64,000 nt of DNA from Chiloscyllium plagiosum (lineage: Eukaryota). Below are positions 5,569 through 63,324 of this stretch, in pieces. Under the pieces are notes generated by a model, which saw nothing but the letters and a program-made list of their open reading frames with translations, had not been told where the DNA came from and made no database searches. The stretch spans positions 102,068,059 through 102,132,058 of the forward strand of contig NC_057718.1 of the NCBI RefSeq assembly GCF_004010195.1, read 5' to 3'. Positions within the stretch are counted from its first letter, which is position 1; the number at the start of each line of letters is the position of its first letter. A program made the position numbers and the translations under genes.

Positions 5569-5570
5569 GA

Positions 5571-20690: not shown

Positions 20691-20760
20691 TTTTCAACGT
20701 GTCCATCCTGCTCGATCCGTTTGCCACACGACTATCAGTAGATGGAGTTGTAATGGGCAC
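20691..20760 (-). CDS. coding exon 6 of an unidentified minus-strand gene (VPITTPSTDSRVANGSSRMDTLK)
   Basis: Acceptor atctttctgcttaaag|G, donor AAA|GTGAGA, 70 nt. Only the phase-0 frame is open, matching the phase-0 end of exon 5. Confidence 0.55.
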
Positions 20761-21174
20761 CTTTAAGCAGAAAGATATCAGAGCATTTTCAATTTAAATT
20801 TTCCCTGTTGCAATGTCTTGCTTTTGCAAATAGTTACTAACTTACAGAAACATTTTGGAAACAGACTCACAACATAACACACAGAATGACTGCATGTGCA
20901 GATCAGAAGCTGGGAATTCTGCAGCAATTCACTTCCTAATTCCCCATAACTTGTTCGCCATCTACATGGCATGAGTCAGGAGTGTGGTGGAATACTCCTG
21001 CCTGGATAACTGCAGCTCCAAGAATACATATGAATCTCGACACCACCTCGGACCCATTTGAGCAGCCCTCTCCACCACTGACACTCAGTAACAGCGGTGT
21101 GTGCCATCTACATGACGCACGGCAGAAATTCACTGGAGCTGCTTAGAAAGCACCTTCTGTGTCCTCAATCATTA

Positions 21175-21690
21175 CAAGGGGATTGCAAAATGTGAATGAA
21201 AACATCTTGCTAAAATTGTATAGGACTTTGGCAATACCACATGGTAAATTCAATAAGCAGTTTTAGATTTCCACATTTATGGAGGGAAGTACTTGTGTTG
21301 AGGTAACAATGCAAAAGATTAGTCCCTGTGATGAGGGGGTTGTGCACAATGAAGGGAGGCTGAGCAAATTGGACCTGAATTCTCTGGAGTTTAGAAGAAT
21401 GAATGGTGATCACATTGAAACATACAAGATTCGGAAGGGACCTTGATAGAGCAGACACTGAGAGATTACTTCTGGTTGTCAGGAATATGAAACATGAGCT
21501 GGGGAGGGGCCCAGTTTCTGGATAAGGGGCTGATCATTTAAGACTGAGCTGAAGAGAAATTCTTTCCCTCAAACAAGGGTGGGCAGGAAAGTGCAGCTGA
21601 TCCCAAGATGAGCCATCATCATAAGATGGCAGGGAAGGCTCGATGGTCGAAATGGCCTACTCCTGCTCATACCTCTCATGTTGTTATGAG
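21175..21690 (+). mobile_element. old CR1 3' fragment
   Basis: Degenerate KLYRTLAIPH and FRRMNGDHIETYKI motifs; TGTTGTTATG-type tail. Confidence 0.75.
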
Positions 21691-22162
21691 TTTGTATCTT
21701 TGACCTTGCCAACAATGTCCACATCTCCTGAAAGAACTAAAAAATACATCTTTTCGTGCTTGTATATTAATCAAAAGGAACATTTATTAATTGGGAAATT
21801 AATGAAAAATCTGTGTTCAGGTGATGAAATTCAGGCTAATAGCAAGAGATTCAGTCTGTGTAAAAATGTTCATTAAATATATAAGAAGGTCTAAGCTAGG
21901 TCGAGTGGTGATAATGGTTTCAATGAAACAGGAAGATTAATGGACATAAAGGAACAAGAAGTTTCATATAAGTGTTGGCTGCAAGTCAGGAATAATTACA
22001 AAGATGCTTTTAATGAACTGAGTGTTAATGTGGTAAACATCCATTTGGGAAGGGAAGAGGAAGGAGTTGACATGTCTTTCACATTGGTACATTCACAAAG
22101 TTCAATACTAAAAACCCAATGCAGCATCACATTTACCTCGGGCAGACCAGTCCCTTCTCGGT

Positions 22163-22165
<3 letters not shown>

Positions 22166-22202
<37 letters not shown>
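22166..22202 (+). repeat. (GT)n microsatellite; a second GT-rich tract at 22960-22991
   Basis: Visible directly. Confidence 0.95.
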
Positions 22203-22203
<1 letters not shown>

Positions 22204-22958
22204 TGAGTGTGGTGCTGGAAAAGCACAGCAGGTCAGGCAGCATTCAAGGAGCAGGAAAATCGACGGGAAGCCGTTGAAATCCACATTTATCCCATGTGGT
22301 TGCAGGGTCCCAAGGCGAAAAATGAGGCGTTCCTCCTCCAGGTGTCGGGTGGTAACGGTTTGGCGATGGAGGAGGCCCAGGACCTGTATGTCCTTGACGG
22401 AGTTGGAGGGGGAGTTAAAGTGTTCATCCAGGGGGCGGTGGGGTTGGTGGTTGCAGGTGGCCCAGAGATGTTCTCTGAAACGATCTGCAAGCAGGCGTCC
22501 TGTCTCCCCAGTGTAGAGGAGACCACACTGGGTGCAACGGATGCAGCAGATGACATTGGTAGAGATACAGGGTAAATTTCTGACGGAGGTGGAAGGATCC
22601 CTTGGGGCCTTGGACGGAGGTGAGGGGAGTGGTGTGGGCACAGGTTTTGCACTTCCTGTGATGGCAGGAAAGGTGCCAGGAGTGGGGGGGTATGGGTTGG
22701 TGGGGGTGTAGACCTGATGAGGGAGTTGCAGAGGAAACGGTCTTTTCAGAACATTGATAGGGGTAGGGAGGGAAATGTATGTCTGGTGGTGGGGTCCGTT
22801 TGGAGGTGATGGAAGTGGAGAAGGATGATGCGATGTACGCGGAGGTTGGGGTGCAAGGTAAGGACCAGGGGGTTCTGTCCTTCTTGCGTTGAGAGGGGTG
22901 GGGTCAAGTGCAGAGGTGCGGGAAGTGGAGAAGATGTGCTGGAGGGCATCATCAACCG
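22203..22958 (-). mobile_element. Penelope-like element fragment including the GIY-YIG domain
   Basis: STNVICCIRCTQCGLLYTGETGRLLADRFREHL...HFNSPSNSVKDIQVLGLL...EEERLIFRLGTLQPHGINVDF. Confidence 0.9.
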
Positions 22959-24357
22959 CGTGTCTGTGTGTGTATTTGTGTGTGTGTGTGTCCATATATG
23001 GCCCAGCCTTGCAGCAATTCACATCAGCTATTCTCAGCGTGCACACAAACACACTCAATTATCGAGGACAGCTTATATTTTCTGTGGCCTGAAGGAGCCT
23101 GAGTTCTGAAGGGCTCTAATGGTGTATGGTAATGTCCCAACCTCTGAACTAGGAGCCAGAACATCTCTGAAGAGGTTAGTTTGGGTATTTAAAAAAAGAG
23201 TCTGCTCTCCATATTTACTTTGGCAGTACAAGGTTGCAGCCCTGATGTTAATTTTTGATGATTTCCTAGCATCTCAGGCCTGTGCTCCTGATCTCTGCGC
23301 CCACAGTGAGGAGGAAGGGGTGTGGGGCAAGGGCTACAAATTGGAGGGACCTCCCCTGGGCTTGGCCAAGAGAGTCATTACCATGTCTGGAGAACAAGCC
23401 ATGTAGGGGATTGTTAGACCTGCCTGCCTGGTAATGTTCAGATGTTCCGTCTATGTCTAAGTGTACATCGAGAGGTGGCATACTGCCCATGGATACATCC
23501 TTGAGGTCTTTAGTAACCTGAGGGCACTGTGGACCTTAGAGTCCCTCTCCCCAAAACGGCACTTGAATTGAAATTTCACTGAATGTTATGGTGCAGGAGG
23601 CCATTCGGTCCATTGTGCCAGCACTGGCTCTTCAAACGAGCATCATTCCCTAGTTTCAATCCCTTGCCTTTCCCCAATACCCTTGCACACTCTTTCTATC
23701 CAAGTAATCATCTGATATGTTGAAGTTTCATTTAGAATTTGACTTTTCCTATGTTACAGTCCACATTTGAGCGACTGTCCATTGGTTAATCAGTGAATTT
23801 AGTTCATTTGACTTTGCAAAAACAGGAAAGACACTAAGTCGACACAGCATCAGCACTAGAAATGCCTTCATTGTTCTCTCGATCTGACCGGAAACCTTTA
23901 ATCACATTATGGCAAACTCAGCTCTTCGAACACAGCTATCGAACACTGAAAGTCAGACTGGCTAATGACAGACAGTGTGGGCAAACAGCATCTGTAGCCA
24001 GAGATGGTAAAAGATCAAAACCCACTGAGTTAATAAAGTGACTTGTGAAAAATATCCTAACCAGCTAACCTAAAGTAACTGTGTGTCTGTACTTTGCATC
24101 TTGAGCAATGGCCAATCACTGATGATGGATTCTCTCACTGAAAAGGATCAATAACATCTCAAGAGAGCATTTCTGGAACTAATCAATCAATGGAATTGAT
24201 GAGAATCTTTTTCAGTTCATCGCTAATGATTTGTGTCAACTGTATGAGACATTTTGCAGTGTCACAAAGGGTCAGTTAACCTGCAGATACAGGTTAGTCA
24301 TGTTGACACTGTTGTAACATTAGAAACACAGCAGCTGACTGGCACACAGCAAGATCC

Positions 24358-24800
24358 CATTTATGGTAATCCCACAGATGATAAAGCCACCCATAGTAAA
24401 CCCACCTATGGTAATCCCACACAAGGCAAACCCAGCATGGTAATTCCACACATGGTTATCCCACACATGGCAAACCCATACATGGCAAACCCATACATGG
24501 CAAACCCACACATGGTAATCCCACCCATGGTAAACCCACACATGGCAAACCCATACATGGCAAACACATACATGGTAAACCCACGCATGGTGATCCCCCA
24601 CATGGTAAACCCATGCATGGTAATCCCCCACATGGTGAACCCACTCATGGCAATCCCACACATGGTAATCCCACGCATGGTAATCCCATGCATGGTAATC
24701 CCACGCATGGTAAACTCATGCATGGTAAACCCACACATGGTAATCCCACATATGGCAAACCCACCCATGATAATCCCACACATGGCAAACCAATGCAAAC
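24358..24800 (+). repeat. 15-bp minisatellite (CATGGYAAWCCCACA), roughly 29 units
   Basis: Visible directly; source of the repetitive MVIPH/HGNPT ORFs. Confidence 0.95.
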
Positions 24801-25047
24801 ACATGTGGGTTTCCTCCAGGGGCTCCAGTTTCCTCCCACATTCCAAAGATGTGCAGGTTAGGGTGGATTGGCCATGCTAAATTGCCTATAGTGTTCAGGA
24901 ATGTGCAGGTTAGGTGGATTAGCCATAGGAAATGCATGGTTACAGGGATAGGGTAGGGAGTGTCGGTCTGGGTGGGGTACTGCTTGGAGGGTTGGTATGG
25001 ACTCGATGGGCCAAACGGCCTATTTCCACACTATAGGCATTCTATGA
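24801..25047 (+). mobile_element. HE1-type SINE lacking its 5' tRNA head
   Basis: GTGGGTTTCCTCCAGGGGCTCCAGTTTCCTCCCACA...GATGTGCAGGTTAGG...TGGCCATGCTAAATTGCC. Confidence 0.9.
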
Positions 25048-25904
25048 TAATGCCCAGATAATCTGATTTTGTGGTGTTAGATTGAGGGACAATTATTTGG
25101 CTGAGACACTAGGAATATCCACTGTTCATTTTCAAAAGAGTGCCATGGACTCTTTTACATTCTCTGGAGAGTGTTGACAGGACCTCCCTCTCACATCTCA
25201 TCTGAAAGACATCGCCTCTGACAGCGCAGTATCTCAGTTCCTATGAAAGAAGTCACTAGTAAGAAAGAGGGGACTTGATATTGTGGATACAGGAGGAAGG
25301 TTTCCTCTTGTGGGAGGCACCAGTGGAAGAACTTGAAGAGGACTAGGGGACACGGTTTAAGAGGGAAACGAAGAGAATGTTTCTTTTTCAGGGAGTTATT
25401 AATCAGTGGAATGTTGTTCCTAGAATGCAGTGCTTCATTGAGCTTATTCAGGGTTGGGTTGGACAAATGTTTACCAGATACGGAAGTTAAGGGCTGTGGA
25501 GGGACAAACTAGAAAGTGGAGTTGAGACCGCAAGCAGATGAGCCCACTATCTTATAGAATTGTCATGATGGGTTGAATGGCCTCATCCAGCTCCTATGTT
25601 CCAAGTATGATATTAGTTATTAAATAATACAAACAGCAAAGAAACTGTCAGGATCCCTAAAGAGTTGAAATGTTGGGAGGTGGTGGATGGGGAGAGTGGA
25701 GAGGATGGAGGTGTAATTTCTCTGAACTTGAGTCTCTATACTGGATGGTGTCAGGGACCAGGTTGGATGTTTGTTCTGCTGCATGCTTTGAGATCATTCT
25801 AATAGTCACACTTTTTAGAGAGCTTCGTTTGTCTTATTTTTAGTTAGGTGTGATAAATTTTGTGTTCTGTTCTTAAAGAAAATCTGCAGCCTCTCATGAG
25901 TATG

Positions 25905-26470
25905 TCATAGAGTCCCACAGCACAGAAACAGGCCTTTTGGTCCAAACTGGTCCATGTCAACCAAAATGTCCATCCACACTAACCCCAGTTCCCTGCACTT
26001 GCCCCATATCCCTCTAAACCTTTCCTATCCATGTATTTGTCCAAATGCCTTTTAAATGTTGTAAATGTACCCGCCTCAATCACTTCCGCTGGCAGCTGTG
26101 ATTAGATTAGATTACATTACTCATCCCATATGCGTACCACACTTTGTGTAAAAAAAGTTGCCCCTCAGATTCCCTTTTATTCTTTCCCATCTAACCTTAA
26201 ACTGATGCCCTCCAGTCCTCAATTCCCCAACTCCCGGAAAAAGGCTGAATGCATTCACCCTAACCATGCCTCTCATGATCTTATACACCTCTATAAGGTC
26301 CCCTCTCAGTATCTTACCCTCTAAAGAAAAAAGTCCTAGCTTATCCAACCTCTCCCGATAACTCAGGCCATTGAGTCCTGACAACGTCCTTGTAAATTTC
26401 TTCTGAACTCTTTCCAGGTTAATAACATCCTTCCTATAGCAAGGTGACCAAAACTGAACACAATACTTAG
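25905..26470 (-). mobile_element. CR1 3' fragment
   Basis: ORF 26121..26537 includes YCVQFWSPCYRKDVINLERVQKKFTR...LRGDLIEVYKIMRG. Confidence 0.9.
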
Positions 26471-27044
26471 TCACTAACTGCCGCATTGACTCACTAAACA
26501 ACAGAGAACACATATGATCTATCAAGGCAGATTTCACTCTGCAATCTGACTTGTCCAGTTGTACTAACAGCTAGGATCATAGCAGTAGCCATGTGAAAAG
26601 TCTCTGCTAGGATGTTGGAATGAGTATAGCTCAGAGTATGCTGTTCTGTAGCCACGCCATGTACTTCTTGTTTAAAGGAAACTGAGCTGTTTGGTCTGAG
26701 CTTGCACATAGATCCAAAGAATCCACAGTAAAACTCCATTCTTTCTAAATCTGAGGAGTGCTCCTGTCTTCCCATGAGCAATACCATAGGAGGTGGAATT
26801 GCAAACTAAATAAAAAAGCCAGCATGAGGCCTTGGAGGAGGGTGAAACAAATTACATGATCAAGTAGGTCAGTCCTTTTTATTCTTAATACTTAAATAGT
26901 AATTTACTAAAGAGGTGATTTACAAAGATGTTGCCCAGTCTGTAAAAATGCCCAGCTCTGAGAAAAAGGTGGGTTGTCTGGGGTTGTTCTCTCTGGAGCA
27001 CGGGAGCTGGTGTGGGTCAGGAAGATGGGAGGGAGATTTGATTG

Positions 27045-27672
27045 AGGGGTACAAGATTGAGTTGGAATGTAAAAGCAGCGATGTGCTACTGAGAATTTAT
27101 AAAGCTCTGGTTGGGCCCCATTTAGAATACTGTGTCCAGTTTTGGGCCCCACATCTCAAGGAGGACATAGTGGCACTGGAGCATGTCCAACAGGGATTCA
27201 CACGGATGATCCCTGGAATGGTAGGCCTGACATACGATAACGGCTGAGGATCCTGGGATTGTCTTCATTAGAGTTTAGAAGGTTGAGGGAGATCTAATGG
27301 GAACTTTCAAGATAATTCATGGCTTAGAAAGGGCGGGCGCTGGGAATTTGTTTCCGTTAGGTGGGGATACTAGGACCTGTGTGCACAGCCTTAGAATTAG
27401 TGGGGGTCAATTTAGAACGGAAATGAGGAGACATTTCTTCAGCCAGAGAGTGGTGGGCCTGTGAAATTCATTGCCACGAAGTGCAGTGGAGGCCGGGACG
27501 TTAAATGTCTTCAGGGTAGAGATTGATAAATTCTTAACCTCACAAGGAATTAAGGGCTACGGGGAGAGTGCGGGTAAATGGCATTGAAATGCCCATCAGC
27601 CATGATTGAATGGCAGAGTGGACTCGATGGGCTGAATGGCCTTACTTCCATTCCTATGTCTTATGGTCTTAT
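27045..27672 (+). mobile_element. CR1 3' fragment nested in an older CR1 remnant
   Basis: LLRIYKALVGPHLEYCVQFWAPHL; tail TCTTATGGTCTTATGG. Confidence 0.9.
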
Positions 27673-27896
27673 GGTGCTAAGATTCACCGGGGCTTGCATT
27701 GAGTAGATGCAAAGGGCCAATGTATTAAGCAGAGAAGCCAGTGACTGGGGGCATAGATTTAAAGTGATCTGCAGAAACGTTAGAGGACAGTGAGGGTGAT
27801 AGGGGTCTGGAACACACTGCCTGAAAGGCAGAAATCTTTGATTCACTTACAAGGGGTGCAGGATCTGCACCTTAAGTGTTGTAACCTGCAGACTAC

Positions 27897-28932
27897 AGAA
27901 ATTGGGTACAAAACTGGTCTGACAGTAGGAGACAGAAGGAGGTGGTGGAAGGTTGTTTTTCAGACTGGAGGCCTGTGACCAGTGAAGTGCCGCAAGGATT
28001 GGTGCTGGGTCCACTGTTGTCCGTCATTTATAGAAATGACATGGATGAGAACATAGGGGGCATGTGGATGACACCAAAATGGGTGGTGTAGTGGACAGTG
28101 AAGAAAGCTGTCTAAGAGTACAATGGGATCTTGGCCAGATGGCTAAGGAGTTTAATTCAGATAAATGTGAGGTATTTTGGTAATGCAAACCAGGGTAGGA
28201 CTTACACAGTTAATGGTAGGGAACAGAGAGACCTAGGGGTGCAGGTTCATATTTCCTAGAAAGTGGTGTCACAAGTAGACAGGGAGTTGAAGAAGGTGTT
28301 TGGCACACTAGCCTTCATCAGTCACAGCATTCATTACAGGAGTTGAGACGTCATGTTACAGATGTACAAGACATTGGTCAGGCCACATTTAGAGTACGGC
28401 ATGCATTTCTAATTACCCTGCTATAGGAAGGATGTTATTAAACTGGAAAAGGTGCAAAAAAGATTTACAAGGATGTTACTGAGACTGGAGGGTTTGGGTT
28501 ATAACAAGAGGGTGGATAGGCTAGGACATTTTTAACCTGGCACGTCAGAGGCTGAGGGATGACCTTATAGAGGTTTATAAAATCATGAGGGGCATGGATA
28601 GGGTAAATATTAAGGTCTTTTCCCTGGAGTGGAGGAGTCTAAAACCAGCAGGCATAGGTTTAAGATAAGGAGGAAAGACTTAGACGGGACCTACAGAGCA
28701 ACTTTTTCACACAGAGGGTGGTGCATGTGTGGAATGAGCTGCCAGAGGGAGTGGTAGAGGTGGGCACAATTACAACATTTCAAAGACGTTTAGACAGGTA
28801 AATGGCTAGGAAAAGGTTTAGAGGGATATGGGCCAAATGGAGGCAAATGGGACTAGTTCAGTTTAGGAAACCTGGTCAGCATGGACGAGTTGGGCCGAAG
28901 GGTCTGTTTCTGTGCTGTATGACTCTATGACT
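27897..28932 (+). mobile_element. CR1 RT-to-3' fragment
   Basis: [40 protein letters not shown] tail. Confidence 0.9.
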
Positions 28933-30559
28933 AAATGCTGTACAGTGGGACTGGACTGGGTGGATTATACTGTGGCCAGCTCAGACACAATGGGTCAGTG
29001 ACCTCTTTGTGTGCCACAAATGCCTTACAATTCTAATGTAAAGAATATTAATATAAGTGTCTACCCTGATGTCTAAAATTGAAAATGCAATAGTTCACAT
29101 TAAGATATAGTCATGTTTTAATCATTTTAAATTAAGAAAATAAATTGAGGAGGGCTTTTATTTCTTTATTAGATGCCTGTGTCAGTGAATTACTTTTATT
29201 TTTCATAAGTATGTATGGCACAGCATTTGCAGGATAGTTAATGTAAATGCTACATTTCCAAGAGGATTTATGGGAGATTGATATTTCCATAACCTTTGTT
29301 TCATCTTCCATCAGTCTATTTTTGGGATTAAAGCTGTTGGCTTTATTCAGCCCACTGTGATCTTCTCATTTGTTTAGAACAGACAGGGTTTATACAAAGT
29401 GCTACAATTAATCAATCTCACACCGTGTTGCGAACGAGGAGTGAAGACCACATATTGTCTTCAGGTGAAGAGGGGGTTTGGAAGGACAGGAATAATTGGA
29501 CATGTGCATTTGTAATCAACCATGTTATTTATGTGGATATAATTCACGTCAAAGGCACATGTACTGTGCTTTGCTTTGCACTATGCTTCTCTGGTCAGCG
29601 AACAACCCCTCTTTCTCCAGTGTCTCACACAGCTAATACGTTTGATGCCTGACACTGTCCCAGTAAATCCCCTCTGCAGTCTTCTCCTGGGCAGCATTCC
29701 CTGATCCTTTCCCTCCATGTCATTGTGAAACAGAAGCCAGAGGGTGAAGGGAGAACTGGAAGCAGCTGTAATAAAGCAGGTTTGTTTTACCTCTTTCAAT
29801 GCATCACTGGCAAAGTCGGCATCCTAATTGCCCCTGAACTGAGAAAATTGCAGGGTTCTTTTCTCCAGAGGGCAGTTAAGAGTTAACCACGACACTGCAG
29901 GTCTGGACCAAATCCAAAGTAGTGTAGGTTGGTGTGGATTGGCCATGCTAAATTGCCCCATAGTGTCCAGGGATGTACGGGCTAGGTGGATTAGCCATGG
30001 GAAATGCAAGGTTACAGAGATATGGTAGGGGGACACGTCTGGGTCGAATGCTCTTCGGAGGAGCGGTGTGGACATGATGGGCCAAATGGCCTACTTCCAC
30101 AGCCCAGGGATTCTGTGATTCTAAGTAAGATTGTAGCAGATTTCCTTCCTCCGAGCAAATTAGTGAACCAGATGCCTTTTTACAACCACGGTCACCGTCA
30201 CTGAGACTGGTTTTCAAATCCAGATTTATTAATTGAATTTAAATTGCCAGTGTGGGATGTGAACCCAGAGCTTTACCCTGGATTGCCAGCCCATTGACAT
30301 TACCACCACACCATCATCACCCCAACATCACTAAGGAACAAAGTTGACCGGAAAGGGAAATAGATTTGGACAACTTCCGTCTGGCAAAGACAGTGAGTTG
30401 TTTTACTGATTTTGTTCACTTCATGCAGACCCATCATGACAGAATGTGATATTTTCCAATAAAGAGGATTAGGTGTCTTATATTTAATTGATTGATTTAG
30501 ATTTTCCCTCTTAACACTCCATTCTCGAATCTATTATTAAACTTATCTTTTGGATCATT

Positions 30560-31780: not shown

Positions 31781-31929
31781 TAAGTACTAAGTATTAAATA
31801 CTTAATTAAAATGAAGTGTAATATTTATCTTCAAAATCGTTTATCTAAAAGCATGTAAGAAAGAAATCGCCTACTTTTGTGAAGAATAAAGTTGATATCT
31901 GTTTTAAAGTTTGATTATGGATAAATATG

Positions 31930-32125
31930 GAGAAGATGAGGACTACAAATTCTGGAGAGTCAGAGTTGATGCAGTGTGATGCTGGAAAAGCACAACAGGT
32001 CAGGCAGCATCAGGGAACAGCAGAGTCAGGTCCTGATGAAGGGTCCTGCTGAAACGTCAACTCTCCTGCTTCTCAGATGCTGCCTGACTTGCTGTGCTTT
32101 TTCCAGCACCACACTCTATCGACTC
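31930..32125. mobile_element. Penelope pseudo-LTR-derived fold-back mini-element
   Basis: Arms GTGTGATGCTGGAAAAGCACAACAGGTCAGGCAGCATC and GATGCTGCCTGACTTGCTGTGCTTTTTCCAGCACCACAC flank CCTGATGAAGGGTCCTGCTGAAACGTC. Confidence 0.8.
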
Positions 32126-32281
32126 TTATGGATAAGCATGAATGAATACATATTAAAAAGGAACCCTCATGATCCAAACCAACTTGTGCTACATCTGAAT
32201 AATAACAAACACTAAAAAAAATTATTCACCAACAGTAACTGAACTGTACAACATCCATTCCATATGCTGTGTATCTCTTAC

Positions 32282-32406
32282 TTGTTTAGTGCTGTCACTG
32301 CTATCAGTCCTCTGTTTCAGCTCCAAAGTCTTGGAAATTAGATTGTGACCCAAAGTTAGGTTGAGTCTCGGTGTTAGATATTCGGGGAAACCACGCTCAG
32401 TGTATC
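32282..32406 (-). CDS. coding exon 5 of the minus-strand gene ((G)YTERGFPEYLTPRLNLTLGHNLISKTLELKQRTDSSDSTKQ)
   Basis: Acceptor cttcatttcaaatctgtctcag|G, donor CAA|GTAAGA, 125 nt. Only one frame is open (phase 1 to 0). Confidence 0.6.
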
Positions 32407-32547
32407 CTGAGACAGATTTGAAATGAAGCAAGTGTGAAGAATCTGAAAGGCAAGATTAGCTATCAATCTGAGATCATTTATATCGTTTGGTCATTGACTT
32501 CAGGCAACACAGTTTCTCTATATTCAAAAATCCACTACTTTTTTTTT

Positions 32548-38790: not shown

Positions 38791-39004
38791 AACAATCCAA
38801 ACCACCCAAACGGGTTCGCCACTATTTTATCGCATTTATTGGAACCTTGGTGTTCTCACACTGACCCCAACAAAGCAAGAAAACATATTGTAGTGACAAT
38901 TCCTCATCAACAACAACTAAAAGCAAAAACAGTTGATGCTGGAGATCTGAATTAGTGCGCTGGAGAAACTCAGCAAGTCTGGTAGCATCTGGGGAGATTA
39001 GGTT

Positions 39005-47845: not shown

Positions 47846-47855
47846 GAGACCTTAC

Positions 47856-48037
47856 CACATTTGCCTGCCAAATAGCTCCGTCCCAAGGGAATGGATTTGC
47901 GAGGATGCAGCACTGCACTCCCCCCGACAGAGCCTGACTGAAGAATCCATCTTTCCCGGCTGCTACTCTGCGAATGAGCTTTTCCATCTCTGTCGAGCTG
48001 CTCTGTCCTTGTAAACGCCTGAGAGCTCTGAAGGTAC
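47856..48037 (-). CDS. coding exon 4 of the minus-strand gene ((K)YLQSSQAFTRTEQLDRDGKAHSQSSSRERWILQSGSVGGSAVLHPRKSIPLGRSYLAGKC)
   Basis: Acceptor gcatttctaaacccgcag|G, donor GTG|GTAAGG, 182 nt, GC/CpG-richer unique island. Phase 2 to 1 fits exons 3 and 5. A second frame is also open. Confidence 0.6.
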
Positions 48038-52449: not shown

Positions 52450-52760
52450 GGTAAGGAAGACTTTCCTTTCAACAAGAGCATTCACAACTTTCGAATGTTC
52501 CAATCCTGGCTTTCTAGCCAACTCATTGCTTTTCAAACTTGAGTCACTGGTGTAACGTAGGGACTGCAGCAGCCAGTTTGTACACAGCTTGCTCCCACAT
52601 ACAGCAATAAATAATAATAAACCAGACAACTGGCTTTTCACTTTGTGACATGGACTGAGGGGTAAACACTGACCCCAGGACGCTGGGGAGAACTCCATTG
52701 GCTCTGCTTCAACATGGTACCATGGGGTCATCTGCACCACTGACAGTGCAGCACCTGAGT
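52450..52760 (-). mobile_element. Deu-domain SINE fragment
   Basis: GTCACTGGTGTAACGTAGGG...GCAGCCAGTTTGTACACAGC...CTCCCACA...CCCCAGGACGCTGGGGAGAACTCC, shared with 4835-5065. Confidence 0.6.
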
Positions 52761-53045
52761 GTGGGCTTTTCTATTCATGCTGATTATCCTTAGACTCAGA
52801 CACTAAGATACTACTGACTGAGTTACTCCTGAACATTGCACGGTTAAAGTAAATGATTTGTCGTACCTTTTGGAGGACAAAAAATTATCTCTAATGTTAG
52901 CAATAACTAGCATAGCTGGGCTAGAATACACATAGAGGGCTAATAATTATGAATGAGGAAAACACTGCAGTTACTTTAACAACTGCAAGTAGCACCAATC
53001 AAACAGAAAAATAAAGCCACCATTATACGAAAGCAGTGTTCTTAC

Positions 53046-53149
53046 TTTAGAGGTAGATGCTGAGTCCCAGCTCGTCTTGGCTGACTAATATGATTGCTTC
53101 TTTCAGGCTGAAAACGAACTGCGTTCTGTAACACAATCAGCAGAATCAC
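53046..53149 (-). CDS. coding exon 3 of the minus-strand gene (VILLIVLQNAVRFQPERSNHISQPRRAGTQHLPL(K))
   Basis: Acceptor gccttcttgttctcatcag|G, donor AA|GTAAGA, 104 nt. Only the phase-0 frame is open; ends in phase 2. Confidence 0.6.
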
Positions 53150-55169
53150 CTGATGAGAACAAGAAGGCAATTACTCTGAAGAAACCTCCAACAGGCGGGA
53201 GACCAGGGATTTCACTGAAGGTGAAAATTAAGTTAATTTTTGCCAAACAACACTGTCCTTTCAGTGTCCAAATAGCTGCCCTAACAAAGACCGGGAGATT
53301 TATCGACACTGATGATCTTCTAAAAGCAACAACTTGTACTTATACAGTGACTTTAACATTATTTACAACACACCTTCACCAGATCTGTCATAAAGTAGGC
53401 GAGCTTTCAATTCCACGTTTGCTTGAGTGAGCATTGTACAAGTTGCCGTGGAGGGACATATGGAGATATATGGGGAGCTAGCCAAATGCTTCATCAAGGT
53501 GGTACATTTCGAGGGCTTTAAGGATAGAGAAGGATAAATATTGGTCCTGGGATACCAGAGAGTTAGCTCATCCTCCACAATCTTCAATCCCGTTCTCCCA
53601 CATGAACTCCAGCAAAACATAGGATTTAAATCCATAGTATAGAACCAAGCAGGAGATAATAATTACTGGACCATGGTACCATCCCAACCTCAGAAGGGAT
53701 CTTGTCCTGCTCAAAGACTGTGTCAACCAGTGTTATACAATGACTGATTATTCTCACTAATGTCTTCAGTTATGACTCTACATATAACACAGCAGTTATA
53801 TCATGTGTTAAAGCTGGGGCCTACTGGTAAAGCCACTGGGCGAGTACAGCATTGGGTTTTGATTAGCTCAGTTGGCTGGAGCGGTGTTTTACAGCATGCA
53901 TTCAATTCCTGCACTGACTACGGTTAACACGAAGGACCCTCAACTTCTCACGTTGCTTGAGATGTGGTGACCCTCAGGTTAAACTCTCCATCAATCCTCT
54001 CTCTCTCTCTCTTTCCAATCAGAGAGAAGCCCAAAGGTCCAGTAGGATTATGACTTTTAAAAGAGCAGAGCAAATGGCTGTGGAGATGTAGGATTGAAGC
54101 CCTGTACTGATACCTGTGGAATGTTAATTTAATCAACTGAAAAATGCAGAACTGCTCATTTGCCTCAGCAAAGACCATAAAACTATCACTATCACTGTCA
54201 CCCTCTGTTCACTACTGTGCTTTAGGGAAGGAAATTGGCCCACAGTGTGACTCCAGACCCACTGCTAATGGTTGACCCTTCAATGCCCACTGAAATAGCC
54301 CTGGCCATTTTCTCAATTTAAGGACAATTTGAGATGAGCAGCAAATGCCAGTGACGCAGAATAAATCTATCCTTTCGGGTGAAAAAAAACACCACAGTTA
54401 CAGCTTGCCAAACTATCAAGATGCATTAGCTTAAAGAGAAAGAAAACCTTGCAGCCTCATGATTGACACTTCATTTGTAAAATAAAATTGAACTGCTCCT
54501 TCGCTTGCCACGGGCACGCTTGGAAGCTGAAGCCTGATTTTGTTCCTGACAGGGAGCATGTTGCTTTTCACCTCAAGTCTGTACCAAGCAGCAAGCTACG
54601 GTATGTCACTGAGACCCTGAGTCTTTCCACACTAATTCCCCCTGAAGCTTCACTTATTACACTGTCCTCATTTGGTCCACAACTCAATTTTCATGTGTGG
54701 GCTTGATGTTGAAATTGAGCAGTTTTTATGCATTGCAAGTGCATCGAGTTCAAATTAGATCTGCCCTTTAATTTCAGTGACTGGAATTAAATAAGTGATT
54801 AGACTGTCACAGTGTCCCTCATGTCTTTGTTCACATTCTCTCATTATTACCGAACAGAAGAGTGTTGGCAGTATATTGTCTCTTCAGCAGCTGTGCACCT
54901 TCCAGTGGGAAGTTTCCTTGTACTAACAGGGTAGGGGAAAACATTCCAAGATGCTTCACTGGAGCAGTTGTCAGAAAAACCCAGCATGGACAGGAGCTGG
55001 TCAGAATTAATAGGAGCTGGTCAGTGGGCTGATTTTCCAGGAGCATCTTAAAGCAGAAAGTAAGGAAATTGCAGAGTTTATAGATCGAAGGGATGAAGGC
55101 ACCACTGCACCAATGGGGTGAGGGGAATGTGGGATGGAAAAGAGACCAAAGTTGTGGGACTCAGATTTT

Positions 55170-55488
55170 ATAGAATCCCTAGAGTGTGGAAGCAAGCCAT
55201 TCAGCCCATCAAGTCCACATCAGCCTTTCAAAGGGCATCCCGCCATTTACCCCCAACCTTTTATTTCCCATAGCTAATCAACCAAGCCTACCCACTCCTG
55301 GACACTATGGGCACTTTAGCATGGCCAATCCACCTAAACTGCACATCTTTGGACTGTGTGAGGAAACTGGAGGACCTGGAGGAAACCCACGCAGACACGG
55401 GGAGAATGTGCAAAGACAGTCACCTGAGGGTGGAATCGAACCCGCGTCCTGGCGCTGTGAGGCAGCAGTGTGAACCACTGAGCCCCCA
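55170..55488 (-). mobile_element. HE1-type SINE
   Basis: GCATGGCCAATCCACCTAAACTGCACATCTTTGGACTGTG...GGAAACCCACGCAGACACGGGGAGA. Confidence 0.9.
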
Positions 55489-56049
55489 CGTTCTTGGAAG
55501 ATTGCATTGCTGAAGGAGGTTACAGAGATTCAGATGCACATGATGCATCTGGAGTTAAGGCAAAATCATTCTGATTCACATCATTGTGCTTTATGTTGGT
55601 AGGAAGACCTTGGAGAAACACAATAAGATAAAGCGGACATAACTCTAAATGGACCTGGATTATGCGTATAAGCATTAGTAATTAAAAGCAGCAGGGCAAG
55701 TTGAAAGCGTTGTTATTAAAGTGTAAGGTAACCTGGGTGTTATAACAGAGGCACAAAGTATAAGAGCAGGGAGATCACATCGACCTTGTATAAGAAACGA
55801 GCTCAGCTCAATGGGAACACTGTGAATAACTTTGGGCACCTCGTTTTAGGAAGGATGTGAAGGCATCAGAGAGAATGGAGTAAAGATTAATGAAGATGGT
55901 CCCAGGGATGAGCACCTTCAGTTATGAGAAAGATTGAAGAAGTTAGGATTATTTCCCTCAGAGGGGGGAAGGCTAATAGGAGAAAGAGGTTTTCAATATT
56001 TCAAAGGGTCTGGGCTGGAATAGGATAGAATAACCTTTCCTGTCACATG

Positions 56050-56267
56050 TACAGGTCGTTCTGCTGTAACGTGCATTTCATCAGCACAAAGTGGCTGGAA
56101 CGCGAATGATGAATTGCGGACGCTGTTTGGATAACGCGAGCTTTCTACTGAATGGGTAAAGCCATTTTCTATTAGCAATCTTTTACAATATGATTTTCTA
56201 TAGCTGTTTTTCATAGCGCGAGGTTGCAGAGGAGTGCAGCTGTTGCATTATAGCAGAATGACCTGTA
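56050..56267. mobile_element. Tigger-like MITE (~214 bp) with TA duplication
   Basis: TA-CAGGTCGTTCTGCTGTAAC...ATTATAGCAGAATGACCTG-TA (TIRs 16/19). An empty-site-like copy of the host repeat, CACATGTACTCAAT, is at ~46533. Confidence 0.85.
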
Positions 56268-58748
56268 CTCAATGAGTGTAGTGAAAACTTTATACATCAC
56301 CAATTATAGTGCTGACTTAGATACAAAAGTACCTAAGCACAGCATCTTTAGATAGGGGACACATTACAGAAATAAATGTTACGAAAAAAAACATGGTCCA
56401 CACACACACACCAGTGACATGCCAGGACAGGGAGGGTCACTGTGCCAGGTCGGGAGGTCACCCCACCACACCAGGTCAGTTGTGGAAACTGTTCCCAGGT
56501 GTTAAAGAGATTGAGAACCAGAGGGCACAAATGTGAAGTAATTAATAAAACAAGCAAAAACGATGTGAGGAAAAATCTACTTTGCGCCGTAAGTAGTCAG
56601 GATCCAGAATGCCCTGCCTGAGATTGTTGTGAAGGAAGGTTCAGTTGAGGTTTTCAGAGGGAATTGGATTGTTATCTGAAATAGGAAAAAGTGCAGGCTA
56701 TCAGGAATGACACAAAGTGAATTATTCCCTCGGAGATCTGACACAGAGAAGATGGACTGACTGACCTCCATCAGCACTGCAACATCGCCGTGATTCTGTG
56801 GAGCAAAGGTTCAAGAAACTCTGTGGCTTGGCATACCCCATACCCAATGTTAATTTAAATGTGACATCATAACAAAGAGATCTGCACGCATCCAGCAACA
56901 ATGCTGTCACCAAGTAGGGAGTATTCGCATAGGAAGTGAAATGCCATTACTTTTAACAATACTTTACAGACTGTGAAACAAAGATAGGGACATAAATGTT
57001 AGAAAGTGATAAACATAAAAACAACTTTTAGAAGTTTTCAAAAATTTATCTTTCTATCTGAAAGTAAAAATTTGACATGAAACATTCCTACTCAGAGCTA
57101 CCCAACTGTGGAAGTTGAATTATTGAGTAGATTGAATGCAGAGATCAATATATTTCTATATATTAAAGACATTGTGGAATATATGAATAGTACAGGAAAA
57201 TGGTTGTGAGCTAGATGAACGATGATATAGTTGAAAGGTGGCGTAAACCTGAGGGGCTCAATGACCTGCTCCTGCTCTTGCTTCCTACATTCTGAACCTC
57301 CTGTGATGCGGGCATTGCAGTTGCCAGATGGTTCTGGAAATTTCCTTGAAATCTCGGTATTGTAGCTGGCTTTAGCAGATGGGATTGCTGGAGATGCTAC
57401 TCAGTGCTGAGTGAGGAGTCGAGTTGGAGGGACAAGTCCTGCCAGAATGGCTCTGGGTGGGCTGTAGCATCCATGGGCTGAATGAATGAGGGTCCACAGA
57501 AGAGCCGCTGCTGGATGGAGTAATGCAGTTGTCAAAAGCTACTTGAGAATCAAAGCCTGTGGGGAAGTTGGTCACTGGACTGGAATTCCAAGCTAATGGT
57601 ATGAGGAACATGGGTTCAAATCCCACCACCCCAGTTGGTAGAACTTAAAGTAAGTTAGTAAAAACTTATCATCGATTTTTTTGCAGAGACCCATTGGGTT
57701 CACTGATGCCCTTTAAGAAGAAAATTTGCCCAGTCTAGCCTACATGTGACTCCAGACCCACAGCAAGGTGGTCAACTCCCAACTGCCCTCTGAAATGACC
57801 CAGCAAGCCCCTCAGATGAGGGGGAAGTAAGAATGGCCAACAAATGTCATTGATGCCAACATCCCGTGAATGATCAACTATGAAGATACCGCATCAACTC
57901 CACTTGGCAGGAGACAATGTAGTGAAGGTCTTTAAAACTGCACGTAGCGCCATGCACGTAGGAGTCATGGTGACTCCTCAGAATTCTGTGAGATTTATCT
58001 TAGTTGTAAAGTTTAATTTAGGATGTCTCTTGAAGATAATTTGTTTGTTCATTAATGTTTGAAAGACATTGGCTTTTGTTTGATTGTTCCAGCGAAATGT
58101 CTAATCTAATCCGTCACCTTCCTTCCCCAGAGTGACTGGGGAAATTCAGTTTTGTCATGTCATTGGGCTGTACAGGGATCCTAAAAAAGGTCATATCATG
58201 TTATTGACAGGAACAGGGTGGTGAAGGTGTGCCCCATGCTGACAGATCTGCTGCTTAATGTAAACGTGGGCTGTACTTCAGCTGATATCACCACTTCCAG
58301 TCATGAATATGCCAGTAGCAAAACAACTCACAGGTAAACAGTGACAGGCTGTAATCAAGCAGAGTGGGATGCCATTCAAATTTTACAAAGGTCACTCTTA
58401 ATTGCATGATTGCTGGATAATGTACTCAGTATTTCCAACTCGCCCGCATGGTATCTGTAACTGGCAACAGGCAAGTGGCGATCTCTCTGGTAATGACAAA
58501 CATTTCTTCTGTCTGTTTTTTCTCTCCCCCTCTAATACAGTTTCCAGGAAAGTAGATTATTACAGGCAAAATTTTCATGCACTCAATGCTTTGATCTACC
58601 TTTACAATTAAATACGTTCGTAGACCAGTCCTTAGATGGGAAGGGGAGGTATGATTGCTGTGAAGTTGAGAGCTGAGATATTGTTCCAATAGACAGTACC
58701 GACTTTGATGTAGAAACGTCTAAAAGGGTCCAAATGCAGAGTTCATAC

Positions 58749-58873
58749 TGCAAAGTGCCTTAAGTATTGCCCACAGGCTCTATCGGCAAAGTGCCGTCGG
58801 ATCTCAAAGGAGTAAAACCTAAATATCCAGATCCTCCTGAAAATCTCTGTAACAATGTCTATATCGTTGGAAC
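58749..58873 (-). CDS. coding exon 2 of the minus-strand gene ((G)SNDIDIVTEIFRRIWIFRFYSFEIRRHFADRACGQYLRHFA)
   Basis: Acceptor ctcactgcttggtacag|G, donor GCA|GTATGA, 125 nt. Only one frame is open (phase 1 to 0), fitting exons 1 and 3. Confidence 0.45.
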
Positions 58874-58885
58874 CTGTACCAAGCA

Positions 58886-61800
58886 GTGAGCTGAGATAGT
58901 CACACAGTGAGCTGGGATAGTTACACAGTGAGCTGGGATAGTCACACAGTGAGCTGGGATAGTTACACAGTGAGCTGAGATAGTCACACAGTGAGCTGGG
59001 ATAGTTACACAGTGACCTGGGATAGTCACAGCGTGAGCTGAGATAGTCACACAGTGAGCGGGGATGGTCCAATGGTACAGTGAGCTGGGATGGTCACATT
59101 GTGAGTGAGCTGGGATGGTCACATTGTGAGTGAGCGGGGATGGTCACATGGTGCAGTGAGCTGGGATGGTCACATGGAGCAGTGAGCTGGGATGGCCACA
59201 TGGTGCAGTGAGCTGGGATAGTCACGTGGTGCAGTGAGCTGGGATAGTCACATGGTGAGTGAACGGGGATGGTCACATGGTGCAGTGAGCTGAGATGGTC
59301 ACATGGTGAGCTGAGATGGTCACATGGTGAGCTGGGATGGCCACATGGTGAATGAGCTGGGATGGTCCAATGGTGCAGAGAGCTGGGATGGTCACACGAT
59401 GAGTAAGCAGGGATGGTCCAATGGTGCAGTGAGCTGGGATGGCCACATGGTGCAGTGAGCTGGAATGGCCACATGGTGCAGTGAGCTGGGATGGTCAAAT
59501 GGTGCATGAACTGGAATGGCCACATGGTGCAGTGAACTGGGATGGTCACATGATGAGGTGGGATGATCATATGGTGAATGAGCTGGGATGGTCACATGGT
59601 GCAGTGAGCTGGGATGGTCACATGGTGAGTGAGCGGGGATGGTCCATTGGTGCAGTGAGCTGGGATGGTCACATGGTGCAGTGAGCTGGGATGGTCACAT
59701 CATGCAGTGAGCTGGGATAGTCACATGGTGCAGTGAGCTGGGATGGTCACATCATGCAGTGAGCTGGGATAGTCACATGGTAGGTGAGCTGGGGCAGTCA
59801 CATGGTGCAGTGAGCTGGAATGGTCACATGGTACAGTCATCTGGGATGGTCACATGGTGCGGTGAGCTGGGATGGTCACATGGTGCAGTGAACTGGGATG
59901 GTCACATGATGAGGTGGAATTGTCACATGGTGGGTAAGTTGGGATTGTCACATGGTGCAGTGAGTTGGGATGGTCACATGATGAGTGAGCTGAGATGGTC
60001 ACATGGTGCAGTGAGTTGGGATAGCCACAAGGTGAGTGAGCTAGAATGGCCACATTGTGCAGTGAGCTGTGATGGTCACATGTTGCAATGAGTTGGGATG
60101 GTCACATGGTGCAGTCAGCTGGGGTGGTCACATGATATGTAAGATGGGTTGGTCACATGGTGCAGTCAGCTGGGATGTTCACACTGTGCAGTGAGCTGGG
60201 ATAGTTATGTTGTGAGTGAGTTGGAATGATCACATTGTGCAATGAACTTGGATAGTCATGTGGTGAGTTGGGATGGTCACATGGTGTAGTGAGATGGGAT
60301 GGTCACATGGGTGAGTTGGGATGGTCACATTGTGCAGTAAGATGGGATAGTCACTTGGTGCAGTGAGTTGGGATGGTCACATGGTGCAGTGAGTTGGGAT
60401 GGTCACATGGTGCAGTGAGCTGGGATGGTCAAATGATGAGGTGAGATGGTCACATTGTGCAGTGAACTGGGATGATCATATGATGAGGTGGGATGGTCAC
60501 ATGGTGGGTGAGTTGGGGTGGTCACATGGTGCAGTGAGCTGGGATAGTCACATGGTGCAGTGAGCTGGGTTGGTCACATCATGCAGTGAGCTGGAATAGT
60601 CACATGGTAGGTGAGCTGGGGTGGTCACATGGTGCAGTGAGCTGGGATGGTCACATCATGCAGTGAGGAGACAGGGAGAATAGAGGTAGGGCTAGAGTGA
60701 GACAGAGAGTGGGCGAGGAATACAGAGAGAGAGTGTGTGCGAGCAGGAGGAAATGGGAAGTTGCGTGTGGAGGCTGAAGAGATTGGGGAGACACTGAATG
60801 AATAGATGTGAATATTGAGTCACAATTAATTAGAATGGACGGCTTTGAGGTATGTAAGGAAGAGGTGTTAGAAATTCTGGAAAGGGTGAAAATAGATAAG
60901 TCCCCTGGGCCTGATAGCATTTATCCTAGGATTCTCTGGGAAGCAAGGGAGGAGATTGCAGAGCCATTGGCCTTGATTTTTATGTCCTCGTTGTCTACAG
61001 GAATAGTGCCAGAAGACTGGAGGATAGCAAATCTGGTTCCCTTGTTCAAAAAGGGGAGTAGAGATAACCCTAGTAACTATAGGTCGTGAGTCTCACTTCT
61101 GTTGTGGGCAAAGTCTTAGAGAGAATAGCAAGGAATAGGATTTATGAACATCTGGATAGGAATAATGTGACCAAGGATAGTCAGCATGGTTTTGTGAAGG
61201 GCAGGTCGTGCCACACAAACCTTATTGAATTCTTTGAGAAAGTGACTAAGGAGGTAGACGAGGGTAAAGCAGTAGATGTGGTGTATATGGATTTTAGTAA
61301 GGCATTTGATAAGGTTCCCCATGCTAGGCTACTTCAAAAAATACGGAGGTATGGCATTGAGGATGAGTTGGAGGNNNNNNNNNNNNNNNNNNNNNNNNNN
61401 NNNNNNNNNNNNNNNNNNNNNNNNNNNNNNNNNNNNNNNNNNNNNNNNNNNNNNNNNNNNNNNNNNNNNNNNNNNNNNNNNNNNNNNNNNNNNNNNNNNN
61501 NNNNNNNNNNNNNNNNNNNNNNNNNNNNNNNNNNNNNNNNNNNNNNNNNNNNNNNNNNNNNNNNNNNNNNNNNNNNNNNNNNNNNNNNNNNNNNNNNNNN
61601 NNNNNNNNNNNNNNNNNNNNNNNNNNNNNNNNNNNNNNNNNNNNNNNNNNNNNNNNNNNNNNNNNNNNNNNNNNNNNNNNNNNNNNNNNNNNNNNNNNNN
61701 NNNNNNNNNNNNNNNNNNNNNNNNNNNNNNNNNNNNNNNNNNNNNNNNNNNNNNNNNNNNNNNNNNNNNNNNNNNNNNNNNNNNNNNNNNNNNNNNNNNN

Positions 61801-62425
61801 NNNNNNNNNNNNNNNNNNNNNNNNNNNNNNNNNNNNNNNNNNNNNNNNNNNNNNNNNNNNNNNNNNNNNNNNNNNNNNNNNNNNNNNNNNNNNNNNNNNN
61901 NNNNNNNNNNNNNNNNNNNNNNNNNNNNNNNNNNNNNNNNNNNNNNNNNNNNNTTGGGGTAGGTTCTTTACTCAGCGAGTGGTGAGTTCATGGAATGCCC
62001 TGCCAGTAGCAGTGGTGGACTCTCCCTCATTATGGGCATTTAAATGGGCATTGGATAGGCATATGGAGGATAGTGAGCTAGTGTAGGTTAGGTGGGCTTG
62101 GATCGGCGCAACATCGAGGGCCGAAGGGCCTGTACTGCGCTGTATTTTTCTATGTTCTATGAATTGGGACGGTCACATGGTGCAGTGAGCTGGGAAGGTC
62201 ACCTGGTGCAATGAGCTGGGGTGGTCACATGGTGCAGTGAGCTGGGGTGGTCACATGGTGCAGTGAGCTGGGGTGGTCACATGGCAGGTGAGCTGGGATG
62301 GCCACATGGTGCAGTGAGCTGGGGTGGTCACATGGTGCAGTGAGCTGGGGTGGTCACATGGCAGGTGAGCTGGGGCGGTCACATGGTGCAGTGAGCTGGG
62401 ATGGTCACATGGTAAAGTGAGCTCG
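58886..62425 (+). repeat. 21/26-bp minisatellite (GTGAGCTGGGATGGTCACATGGTGCA; 21-mer GTGAGCTGGGATAGTCACACA at the left end), interrupted at ~60667-62161 by a CR1
   Basis: Tandem array visible on both sides of the LINE. Confidence 0.97.
60746..62162 (+). mobile_element. 5'-truncated CR1 LINE inserted in the minisatellite; N gap 61375-61953
   Basis: VEAEEIGETLNE, DKSPGPDSIYPRILWEAREEIAEPL, QHGFVKGRSCHTNLIEFFE, YMDFSKAFDKVPH; tail TTCTATGTTCTATG. Confidence 0.95.
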
Positions 62426-62664
62426 AATGGCCATAATTACACCATTTAAAAGGCATCTGGACGAGTATATGATTGGAAGGGTTTATAGGGACATGGGCCA
62501 AATGCTGGCAAATGGGACTAGACTAATTTAGGACATCTAGTTGGACCGAAGGGTCTGTGCTGTACATCTCTATGACTCTATGACATATTCCTGTTACTTG
62601 CCACGTGCATGGCCAAGAATTTGGCAAATCCGAGGCGGGCATGTGGAGGGATCCTCAGTCTTAC

Positions 62665-62692
62665 CTTCCAGGGTCGAAAGTCCTGCCTCCAT
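62665..62692 (-). CDS. candidate first coding segment (MEAGLSTLE-G) within a 101-nt exon, 62765-62665
   Basis: Acceptor gatgttttgctttag|G at 62765, donor AAG|GTAAGA at 62665. ATG in strong Kozak context (AGTATGG) with an in-frame upstream TGA; phase 1 fits exon 2. Confidence 0.45.
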
Positions 62693-63324
62693 ACTTAAAG
62701 GGAACCCAGCAAGACATCCGTTCTCAGCAACTCAGCAACACCACTCAACATCTCTGAATGGCTGCCTAAAGCAAAACATCATGCCCCCCCGCTCCCCACC
62801 CCTTTCATCTTTCCTTAGATGGATTTGCCCCCTTGGCCAGACAGAGAGTCACACTTGGCCAATCTCCTTGACCAGTTCACGGCCCCCACTATCCCTTAGA
62901 CATCCTCCATGTCCACTGGTACTCTTGACTTTTATTCCTACCTTCCCTGTATACACTGGATATTAATAACCCAAGGCATTTCTAACAATGTGATTTTAAC
63001 AATGCTATTTTATTAAACCAAAGTACACGATAAAATTCTGTAAAAACTTTACCCGAACAGTGGGGGTACAATCACAAGTGAACCTGGCTTATATGGACGT
63101 GACCACGGATCAGATGTTGGTGATTGGCCCATACGGTCTCAACATGCAGATGACCTTCTGCATGAACTAACCAGGCTCTGAGGCAGGCTTTCTTATACCT
63201 TTACTCTATACAGACAAGGCTGAATGTTCACGCCTTGACATCGTCCATTCTCCAGCACATGATCAGTCTGACCACTAGCGAACGTCGCAAATCCATCATG
63301 CACCTTGGCTACTTTAATTGCTCA

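What the first reader, a model, noticed from the sequence alone, without database searches (positions are those of the whole stretch)
20691..62765. Hidden multi-exon minus-strand gene that the ORF track does not show
Seen: six short unique islands, each with AG acceptor and GT donor (four GTAAG, one GTGAG, one GTATG), splice in frame (28+125+104+182+125+70 nt) from a Kozak ATG at 62692. The product is MEAGLSTLEGSNDIDIVTEIFRRIWIFRFYSFEIRRHFADRACGQYLRHFAVILLIVLQNAVRFQPERSNHISQPRRAGTQHLPLKYLQSSQAFTRTEQLDRDGKAHSQSSSRERWILQSGSVGGSAVLHPRKSIPLGRSYLAGKCGYTERGFPEYLTPRLNLTLGHNLISKTLELKQRTDSSDSTKQVPITTPSTDSRVANGSSRMDTLK (211 aa). Four internal exons have only one open frame, and all phases agree. Inference: the hydrophobic stretch FAVILLIVLQNAV followed by a polar S/T-rich region suggests a secreted or membrane protein. 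I do not recognise a homolog, so it may be fast-evolving or chondrichthyan-specific. The exons were picked by eye, so some selection bias is possible, and exons 1-2 are the least secure.
Basis: partly seen in the sequence, partly recalled or inferred. Interest (0 to 1): 0.75.

Follow-up and report, generated by a model that had tools for sequence, protein, structure and literature searches.

The report
Unnamed ancient shark gene, partly mis-assembled
This is a real, spliced shark gene already listed in databases as 'uncharacterized'; four of the six proposed exons are right, and its protein, which has relatives from bichirs to oysters, is predicted to be mostly unfolded and likely works inside cells as a binding scaffold, possibly on cilia or sperm tails, rather than being secreted.

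Summary
The gene is real and already annotated. One 2,077-nt contig from a public run is spliced at 53046/48037 as proposed. The 'secreted or membrane' reading fails: the hydrophobic patch is an internal 8-residue splice extension found in 2 of 56 family proteins. Orthologs are named in 15 cartilaginous fishes, but the family is not restricted to them. A conserved N-terminal module links it to unnamed proteins of bichirs, amphioxus, an acorn worm, molluscs, a brachiopod and an annelid. I found no significant Pfam or PDB match and no paper. Two models are disordered apart from short helices. Likely an intracellular scaffold; a cilia or sperm-tail role is a 35% guess.

The parts
53046..53125 (-). 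Coding exon 6 (80 nt, downstream acceptor; residues 190-216 of the 482-aa isoform X2)
   Evidence: Exact peptide mapping; the only bins covered by the spliced contig of run X6, laid 53043-53127 with 3 and 2 nt of junction overlap
53126..53149 (-).
   Evidence: In RefSeq X1 and X3 only, 2 of 56 proteins; skipped by the X6 contig
47856..48037 (-).
   Evidence: 100% match to XP_043552589.1; junction 53046/48037 read in the loose end of the X6 contig; single copy in G000
32282..32442 (-).
20691..20760 (-).
20186..20295 (-).
   Evidence: P0007 residues 363-397 at 20293-20189, AG before, TGA after; not seen in the other species' proteins aligned
58749..58873 (-).
62665..62692 (-).

Best explanation
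The window holds coding exons 6-9 of a 10-exon shark gene already modelled as 'uncharacterized' LOC122553107, whose protein is predicted to be mostly disordered and likely acts inside the cell as a scaffold that binds through a conserved basic N-terminal module, possibly along the microtubules of motile cilia or sperm tails. Shown: exon structure, one spliced transcript contig, orthologs in 15 cartilaginous fishes, and homology of residues about 10-116 to unnamed proteins of bichirs, amphioxus, an acorn worm, molluscs, a brachiopod and an annelid. Predicted: no globular domain; helices at 50-66, 102-116 and 442-455; no signal peptide or membrane span. Inferred: the N-terminal module (an M-x-G-x-Y-L-G motif, a basic helix, a G-F-x-G motif and a second helix) folds only on binding a large acidic partner, while the S/T-rich middle is a flexible spacer and the acidic tail with its short helix holds a second partner. 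My odds: gene identity 0.97, intracellular disordered scaffold 0.8, ciliary or flagellar partner 0.35.
For: Identity: exon 7 peptide 100% to P0001, XP_043552588-590. Ten exon matches on one strand of G000:C9, 102203083 to 102062384, and no second locus; every exon maps letter for letter with GT/AG ends. Splicing: one 2,077-nt contig in run X6 covers only 53043-53127 of 1,401 nt laid, and its two loose ends equal the start of exon 7 and the end of exon 5. Its length would leave a 357-nt 3' UTR with the 161-nt exon 8, and the only polyA signal in 1,200 nt after the stop is at 341. Family: 12 and 13 hits, species. HMMER over 1.84 billion representatives gave 23 hits at E<=0.001, the distant ones centred on profile positions about 8-80; 10 of the 17 new hits were looked up and named. 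Reciprocal test: a profile from 12 invertebrate proteins scores 13 of 14 vertebrate-type proteins at 32-99 bits, against at most 10.1 bits for 1,414 shuffled or reversed controls. The N-terminal motif is in 24 of 26 aligned proteins. Disorder: mean pLDDT 48.2 and 49.7, pTM 0.23 and 0.20, isolated helices, for the shark and oyster proteins. Charge: 24 K+R against 9 D+E in residues 1-130, net -16 in the last 120. For cilia: all named carriers are animals with motile cilia or flagellated sperm (my knowledge), and short conserved motifs and repeats are how microtubule inner proteins bind the lattice (PMC10973386, passages seen).
Against: There is no direct evidence on location or partner, and the tissue of run X6 is not known. 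None of the MIP signature motifs is conserved: of 26 proteins, PYG 0, GFG 0, ELLE 0, NWE 1 and a loose SNYG 3, at unrelated positions; no internal repeats in 6 tested. No Pfam MIP family matched. Profile searches of PDB sequences gave no hit to any axonemal protein. No named hit comes from echinoderms, cnidarians or single-celled flagellates, unlike core ciliary proteins. Splicing rests on one contig in one run: X1, X2 and X8 laid nothing on exon 6 (the tool says such blanks can be false). The elephant-shark protein P0018 failed the reciprocal test (13.9 bits). Low pLDDT from alignments of 26 and 12 sequences can also reflect shallow alignments.
Confidence: 0.4

Rival explanations
1. Same gene, but the protein is a nuclear or RNA-particle factor: the basic N-terminus binds nucleic acid or serves as a nuclear signal, and the acidic tail acts as a histone-chaperone-like or activation segment.
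For: Basic N-terminus with R/K clusters and an acidic C-terminus; disorder.
Against: No nucleic-acid-binding family matched. The one named member, the acorn-worm 'pre-rRNA-processing protein FHL1-like', has no supporting Pfam domain and looks like an automatic low-complexity label.
Confidence: 0.22
2. Same gene, and the protein is a tissue-restricted cytoplasmic adaptor (for example neuronal, endocrine or membrane-cortex) with short linear motifs and no link to cilia.
For: Disorder with a few conserved short motifs fits any adaptor; no MIP module is present.
Against: Nothing positive points to a specific non-ciliary partner.
Confidence: 0.28
3. One reading: a 211-aa-plus secreted or membrane protein that starts at 62692, existing as a minor internal-promoter isoform of this gene.
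For: Frames and splice signals fit; segment 1 is the only Kozak-ATG-plus-donor candidate in 53200-64000 and is phase-compatible with segment 2; the 53149 acceptor is used in two RefSeq isoforms.
Against: No protein among the 9 carpet-shark isoforms or the other orthologs aligned has these N-terminal residues. Segment 2 is a dispersed repeat. The laid contig joins exon 5 instead. 55 of 56 family proteins have a best 19-residue hydropathy of at most 1.31; the exception is a divergent C-terminal tail in one basking-shark model.
Confidence: 0.04

Closest known systems
RefSeq LOC122553107, Chiloscyllium plagiosum (XP_043552588.1, XP_043552589.1, XP_043552590.1; 'uncharacterized protein')
   Same: It is this gene: all ten coding exons map letter for letter to G000:C9, four of them in the window.
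Uncharacterized orthologs in cartilaginous fishes (e.g. Stegostoma LOC125455072, Scyliorhinus canicula LOC119971465, Carcharodon LOC121272372, Leucoraja LOC129695067, Callorhinchus LOC103177908) and bichirs (Polypterus LOC120516651, Erpetoichthys LOC114666116)
   Same: End-to-end alignment in cartilaginous fishes, 34-98% identity to P0004 among the 12 hits; bichirs share the N-terminal module, a middle 'LISRSL' block and a C-terminal 'KQIEVII' block.
   Different: None carries the VILLIVLQ patch; none has a name, a Pfam family or a paper in the library searched.
Unnamed invertebrate proteins (Branchiostoma LOC144871908, Saccoglossus XP_006812508.1, Ostrea LOC125650529, Lingula LOC106167179, Physella LOC131946798, Haliotis, Batillaria, Nucella, Owenia)
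   Same: N-terminal module, basic front and acidic tail, predicted disorder.
   Different: They keep extra conserved middle blocks and a longer C-terminal helix (473-520 in the oyster model) that vertebrates have largely lost; 17-26% overall identity to the shark protein.
Microtubule inner proteins (Mn, NWE, SNYG, PYG, GFG, ELLEn, DM10 modules; PMC10973386, passages seen)
   Same: Works-like comparison only: short conserved motifs in an otherwise unfolded chain.
   Different: None of the signature motifs searched is conserved in this family, no internal repeats were found, and no PDB axonemal chain matches.

Membership tests
RefSeq gene LOC122553107 | Identical protein sequence encoded exon by exon at one locus with GT/AG boundaries | tested here: met
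RefSeq gene LOC122553107 | Spliced transcript joining exons 5, 6 and 7 | tested here: met
   One contig of run X6; 1 of 4 runs laid
Secreted or single-pass membrane protein | N-terminal hydrophobic signal peptide | tested here: not met
   Best 11-residue hydropathy in the first 40 residues is 1.32 in Chiloscyllium and at most 1.19 in the others; the start is polar and basic. SignalP itself was not available.
Secreted or single-pass membrane protein | Hydrophobic span of about 19 residues | tested here: not met
   55 of 56 proteins at most 1.31; VILLIVLQ is 8 residues, internal, in 2 of 56
Chondrichthyan-specific (orphan) gene | No homolog outside cartilaginous fishes | tested here: not met
Microtubule inner proteins (NWE, SNYG, PYG, GFG, ELLEn modules) | Conserved signature motif or repeat | tested here: not met
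   Simple pattern search on 26 proteins and self-comparison on 6; no profile-profile test against these modules was possible; Mn repeats were not searched by pattern
Microtubule inner proteins | Density in an axonemal cryo-EM structure or localisation to the axoneme | not testable with these tools
   No sequence match to PDB chains; no imaging or proteomics available
TEX33 / CIMIP4 (PF15400) | Match to the Pfam model | tested here: not met
   No PF15400 hit; the Atlas lead of 0.76 is at chance level
Cyclic-nucleotide-binding domain proteins | cNMP_binding fold or Pfam match | tested here: not met
   Atlas lead 0.79-0.81 for residues 8-125, but no Pfam match and no beta-barrel in either model

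The most novel reading that the evidence does not exclude
An undescribed protein family dating from the common ancestor of bilaterian animals, defined by a new N-terminal microtubule-binding module, that builds part of the motile cilium or sperm tail in marine invertebrates, sharks and bichirs and was lost in amniotes and teleosts; in sharks it sits between two gene blocks (PCSK2-BFSP1 and PROKR-APLF-PLEK) that lie on different human chromosomes, so a chromosome break may mark its loss.
Probability: 0.2. Interest if true: 0.55.

Novelty: already known. Interest (0 to 1): 0.3.

Why it matters
As a gene it is not new: automatic annotation already holds it in 15 cartilaginous fishes. What I did not find in print or in Pfam is that these models, the bichir models and unnamed proteins of five invertebrate groups form one family with a shared N-terminal module. 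That is a modest addition, a candidate for a new domain of unknown function. It would matter more if the module proved to bind axonemal microtubules, because it would add a lineage-restricted module to the known set and give a test case for how sperm tails changed in land vertebrates. The case also shows how hand-picked exons can produce a false 'secreted' signal.

Tried and rejected
Relatives' genomes: none held for this genome, so no tblastn on other sharks and no dN/dS. Pfam on the five longer proposed exon peptides: 0 of 5. Run search: no RNA holder listed; 6 of 19 rows hold exon-7 words; organism-A runs X1 and X2 hold 0.74 and 0.63 of them but laid nothing on exon 6, and raw-read run X8 (2% read) laid nothing, which is no test. 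Pfam on family proteins: nothing reaches a curated cut-off. PDB by sequence: 0 hits at E<=10 with the shark profile; with the wider profiles only unrelated hits at E>=0.047. Foldseek on both low-confidence models: 0 at E<=0.001; the row for a Leishmania doublet chain (E 8.1) is meaningless. ESM Atlas: best scores 0.81 (cyclic-nucleotide-binding-like) and 0.77 (unnamed; CIMIP4/TEX33 at 0.76), all at chance level. The idea that segment 2 is an exon of a nested cyclic-nucleotide-binding gene was rejected: no PDB or paralog match and it is a dispersed repeat. CpG content does not separate the false start (observed/expected 0.29) from the true one (0.38). Papers: 0 hits for 12 locus or accession ids (main texts only, so supplementary gene lists may mention them) and 0 for two synteny queries; one search listed one paper, seen as a listing only and not used. 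No complex prediction was run, as no partner is known.

Full report
Observation. All six segments, their splice signals and the 211-aa translation are in the window as written. Two details differ: segment 4 has two open frames, and segment 2 is not unique. The window is G000:C9:102068059-102132058 of a 3.56-Gb genome, about 29% self-repeated and 44% when compared with about 0.5 Mb of fetched sequence.

What it is. The peptide of segment 4 matches three database proteins at 100, 95 and 85% identity, named uncharacterized proteins of Chiloscyllium plagiosum (LOC122553107), C. punctatum and Stegostoma tigrinum. Their clusters hold nine isoform records. The 490-aa isoform X1 matches ten places on the minus strand of C9 and nowhere else in G000. 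Exons 1-5 (189 residues) lie 15-71 kb beyond the window's right end and exon 10 (128 residues) about 5 kb beyond its left end. Isoform X3 ends in an alternative exon at 20295-20186.

They lie in intron 5 and occur in none of the nine isoform proteins. For the stretch 58600-58880, 39 of 40 scored places in G000 are other loci at 71-86% identity. Eight of them, examined locally, align to 58799-58883, one to 58740-58876, and they resemble each other over 70-190 nt, so segment 2 is part of an old dispersed repeat; I did not identify its class. Segment 1 is single-copy. In its favour, segment 1 is the only Kozak-ATG-plus-donor candidate in that part of the intron and its phase fits segment 2.

Transcript evidence. 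No run on record as RNA was listed as a holder; six rows hold exon-7 words. Of four runs laid on 52450-53850, one, X6 (same species label as the best holders, 94 Mb of contigs, kind not on record), gave a single 2,077-nt contig covering 53043-53127 and nothing else; X1, X2 and X8 gave nothing. Its loose ends equal window 48005-48034 and the last bases of exon 5 at C9:102147125. So junction 53046/48037 is confirmed, the upstream partner is exon 5 and not segment 2, and the acceptor used is 53125. G000 shows no second, intronless copy, so the contig is best read as mRNA. This weakly favours the RefSeq form. It is one contig in one run, of unknown tissue.

Not secreted. VILLIVLQ comes from the 24 nt between two acceptors. 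It is in 2 of 56 proteins, at residues 190-197, and the FA before it came from the false segment 2. 55 of 56 proteins have no 19-residue window above 1.31 on the Kyte-Doolittle scale, and the true N-terminus is polar and basic.

Family. Orthologs are named in 15 cartilaginous fishes: 11 sharks, 3 skates and the elephant shark. Per-exon identity to the bamboo-shark protein falls from 89-100% in C. punctatum to 15-55% in the elephant shark. A profile of 12 of them found 23 proteins at E<=0.001 among 1.84 billion representatives, 17 of them new. I looked up 10 of the 17: Polypterus (with Erpetoichthys in its cluster), Branchiostoma, Saccoglossus, five molluscs (Batillaria, Haliotis, Physella, Nucella, Ostrea), Lingula and Owenia. 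Seven were not looked up: P0040-P0043 resemble the vertebrate members and P0046, P0048 and P0053 the molluscs. Absence from teleosts, amniotes and arthropods is therefore suggested by the named hits but not shown. The link is reciprocal: a profile of the 12 invertebrate-type proteins scores 13 of 14 vertebrate-type proteins at 32-99 bits against at most 10.1 for 1,414 controls; the elephant-shark protein, whose N-terminal motif is altered, scores 13.9. The shared core is residues about 10-116. No Pfam family, PDB sequence or fold matches, and the 12 locus or accession ids searched occur in no main text of the paper library.

Shape. AlphaFold2 gives mean pLDDT 48.2 and pTM 0.23 for the shark protein, with helices at 50-66, 102-116 and 442-455, and 49.7 and 0.20 for the oyster protein, with the same first helix and a long C-terminal helix. 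The front is basic and the tail acidic.

Neighbourhood. I read 200 kb on each side for long open frames. Upstream lie a two-exon rhodopsin-family receptor, APLF, an F-box gene and pleckstrin. Downstream lie a subtilase with a P-domain, an intermediate-filament gene and a kinesin-like start. The names PROKR, FBXO48, PCSK2, BFSP1 and KIF16B are my recall from the sequences, not call results; the PDB search for the receptor gave only substance-P receptors as distant matches. From my knowledge, the two blocks sit on human 2p13-14 and 20p12, so the gene lies at a break in human synteny; I found no paper on this order and did not test it.

How it likely works. Shown: an expressed, conserved, alternatively spliced gene. 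Predicted: an unfolded chain with a few helices and no membrane or secretion signal. Inferred: the conserved N-terminal module folds on a partner and the rest is spacer and a second docking site. For the partner I favour axonemal microtubules (0.35), because the named carriers all have motile cilia or flagellated sperm and because microtubule inner proteins bind through short motifs of this kind (PMC10973386, passages seen). The family fails the motif tests for the known modules and the Atlas lead to CIMIP4/TEX33 is at chance level, so it is not filed as a MIP.

Verdict. Observation partly confirmed, interpretation partly supported. The gene is already known as an uncharacterized model; the unnamed cross-phylum family is a small new point. 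The scan's notes hold nothing on this protein and one unrelated note nearby; a word search showed other uncharacterized shark genes read in a similar way, which I did not check and do not count as support. Interest 0.3.

Noticed in passing
window 92-877 (-): 261-aa open frame with CCHC zinc-knuckle-like motifs, resembling ORF1 of a Tx1/L1-type retrotransposon (class recalled).
   Followed up: no
window 5568-7804; 24363-24791; 58884-60667 and 62171-62423: Minisatellite arrays in the introns: 19 bp x 118, 15 bp x 29, and a 21/26-bp unit in two blocks split by a LINE fragment and an assembly gap.
   Followed up: no
window 18584-19924 (-) and 22162-23058 (-): A 446-aa reverse-transcriptase frame of CR1-like type and a 298-aa frame resembling the end of a Penelope-type element (classes recalled).
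   Followed up: no
window 58740-58883; L057-L064: Old dispersed repeat of at least 70-190 nt with 39 or more other places in G000 at 71-86% identity; class not identified.
   Followed up: partly
L018:6141-6611 (+), L019:2195-2986 (+): Two-exon rhodopsin-family receptor, by recall a prokineticin receptor, head to head with this gene about 40 kb upstream of its start codon.
   Followed up: partly
L042-L048 and L026-L034: Gene order kinesin-like, filensin-like, PC2-like convertase, this gene, receptor, APLF, F-box, pleckstrin: blocks that by recall lie on two human chromosomes.
   Followed up: partly
window 3238-4040, 17033-17321, 61375-61953: Three runs of N (1,671 bases), all in introns.
   Followed up: no
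P0002, P0003, P0008, P0012, P0013: Database isoforms skip exon 2, exon 3 or exons 8-9, or end early, in different species; even parts of the conserved N-terminal module are alternatively spliced.
   Followed up: no
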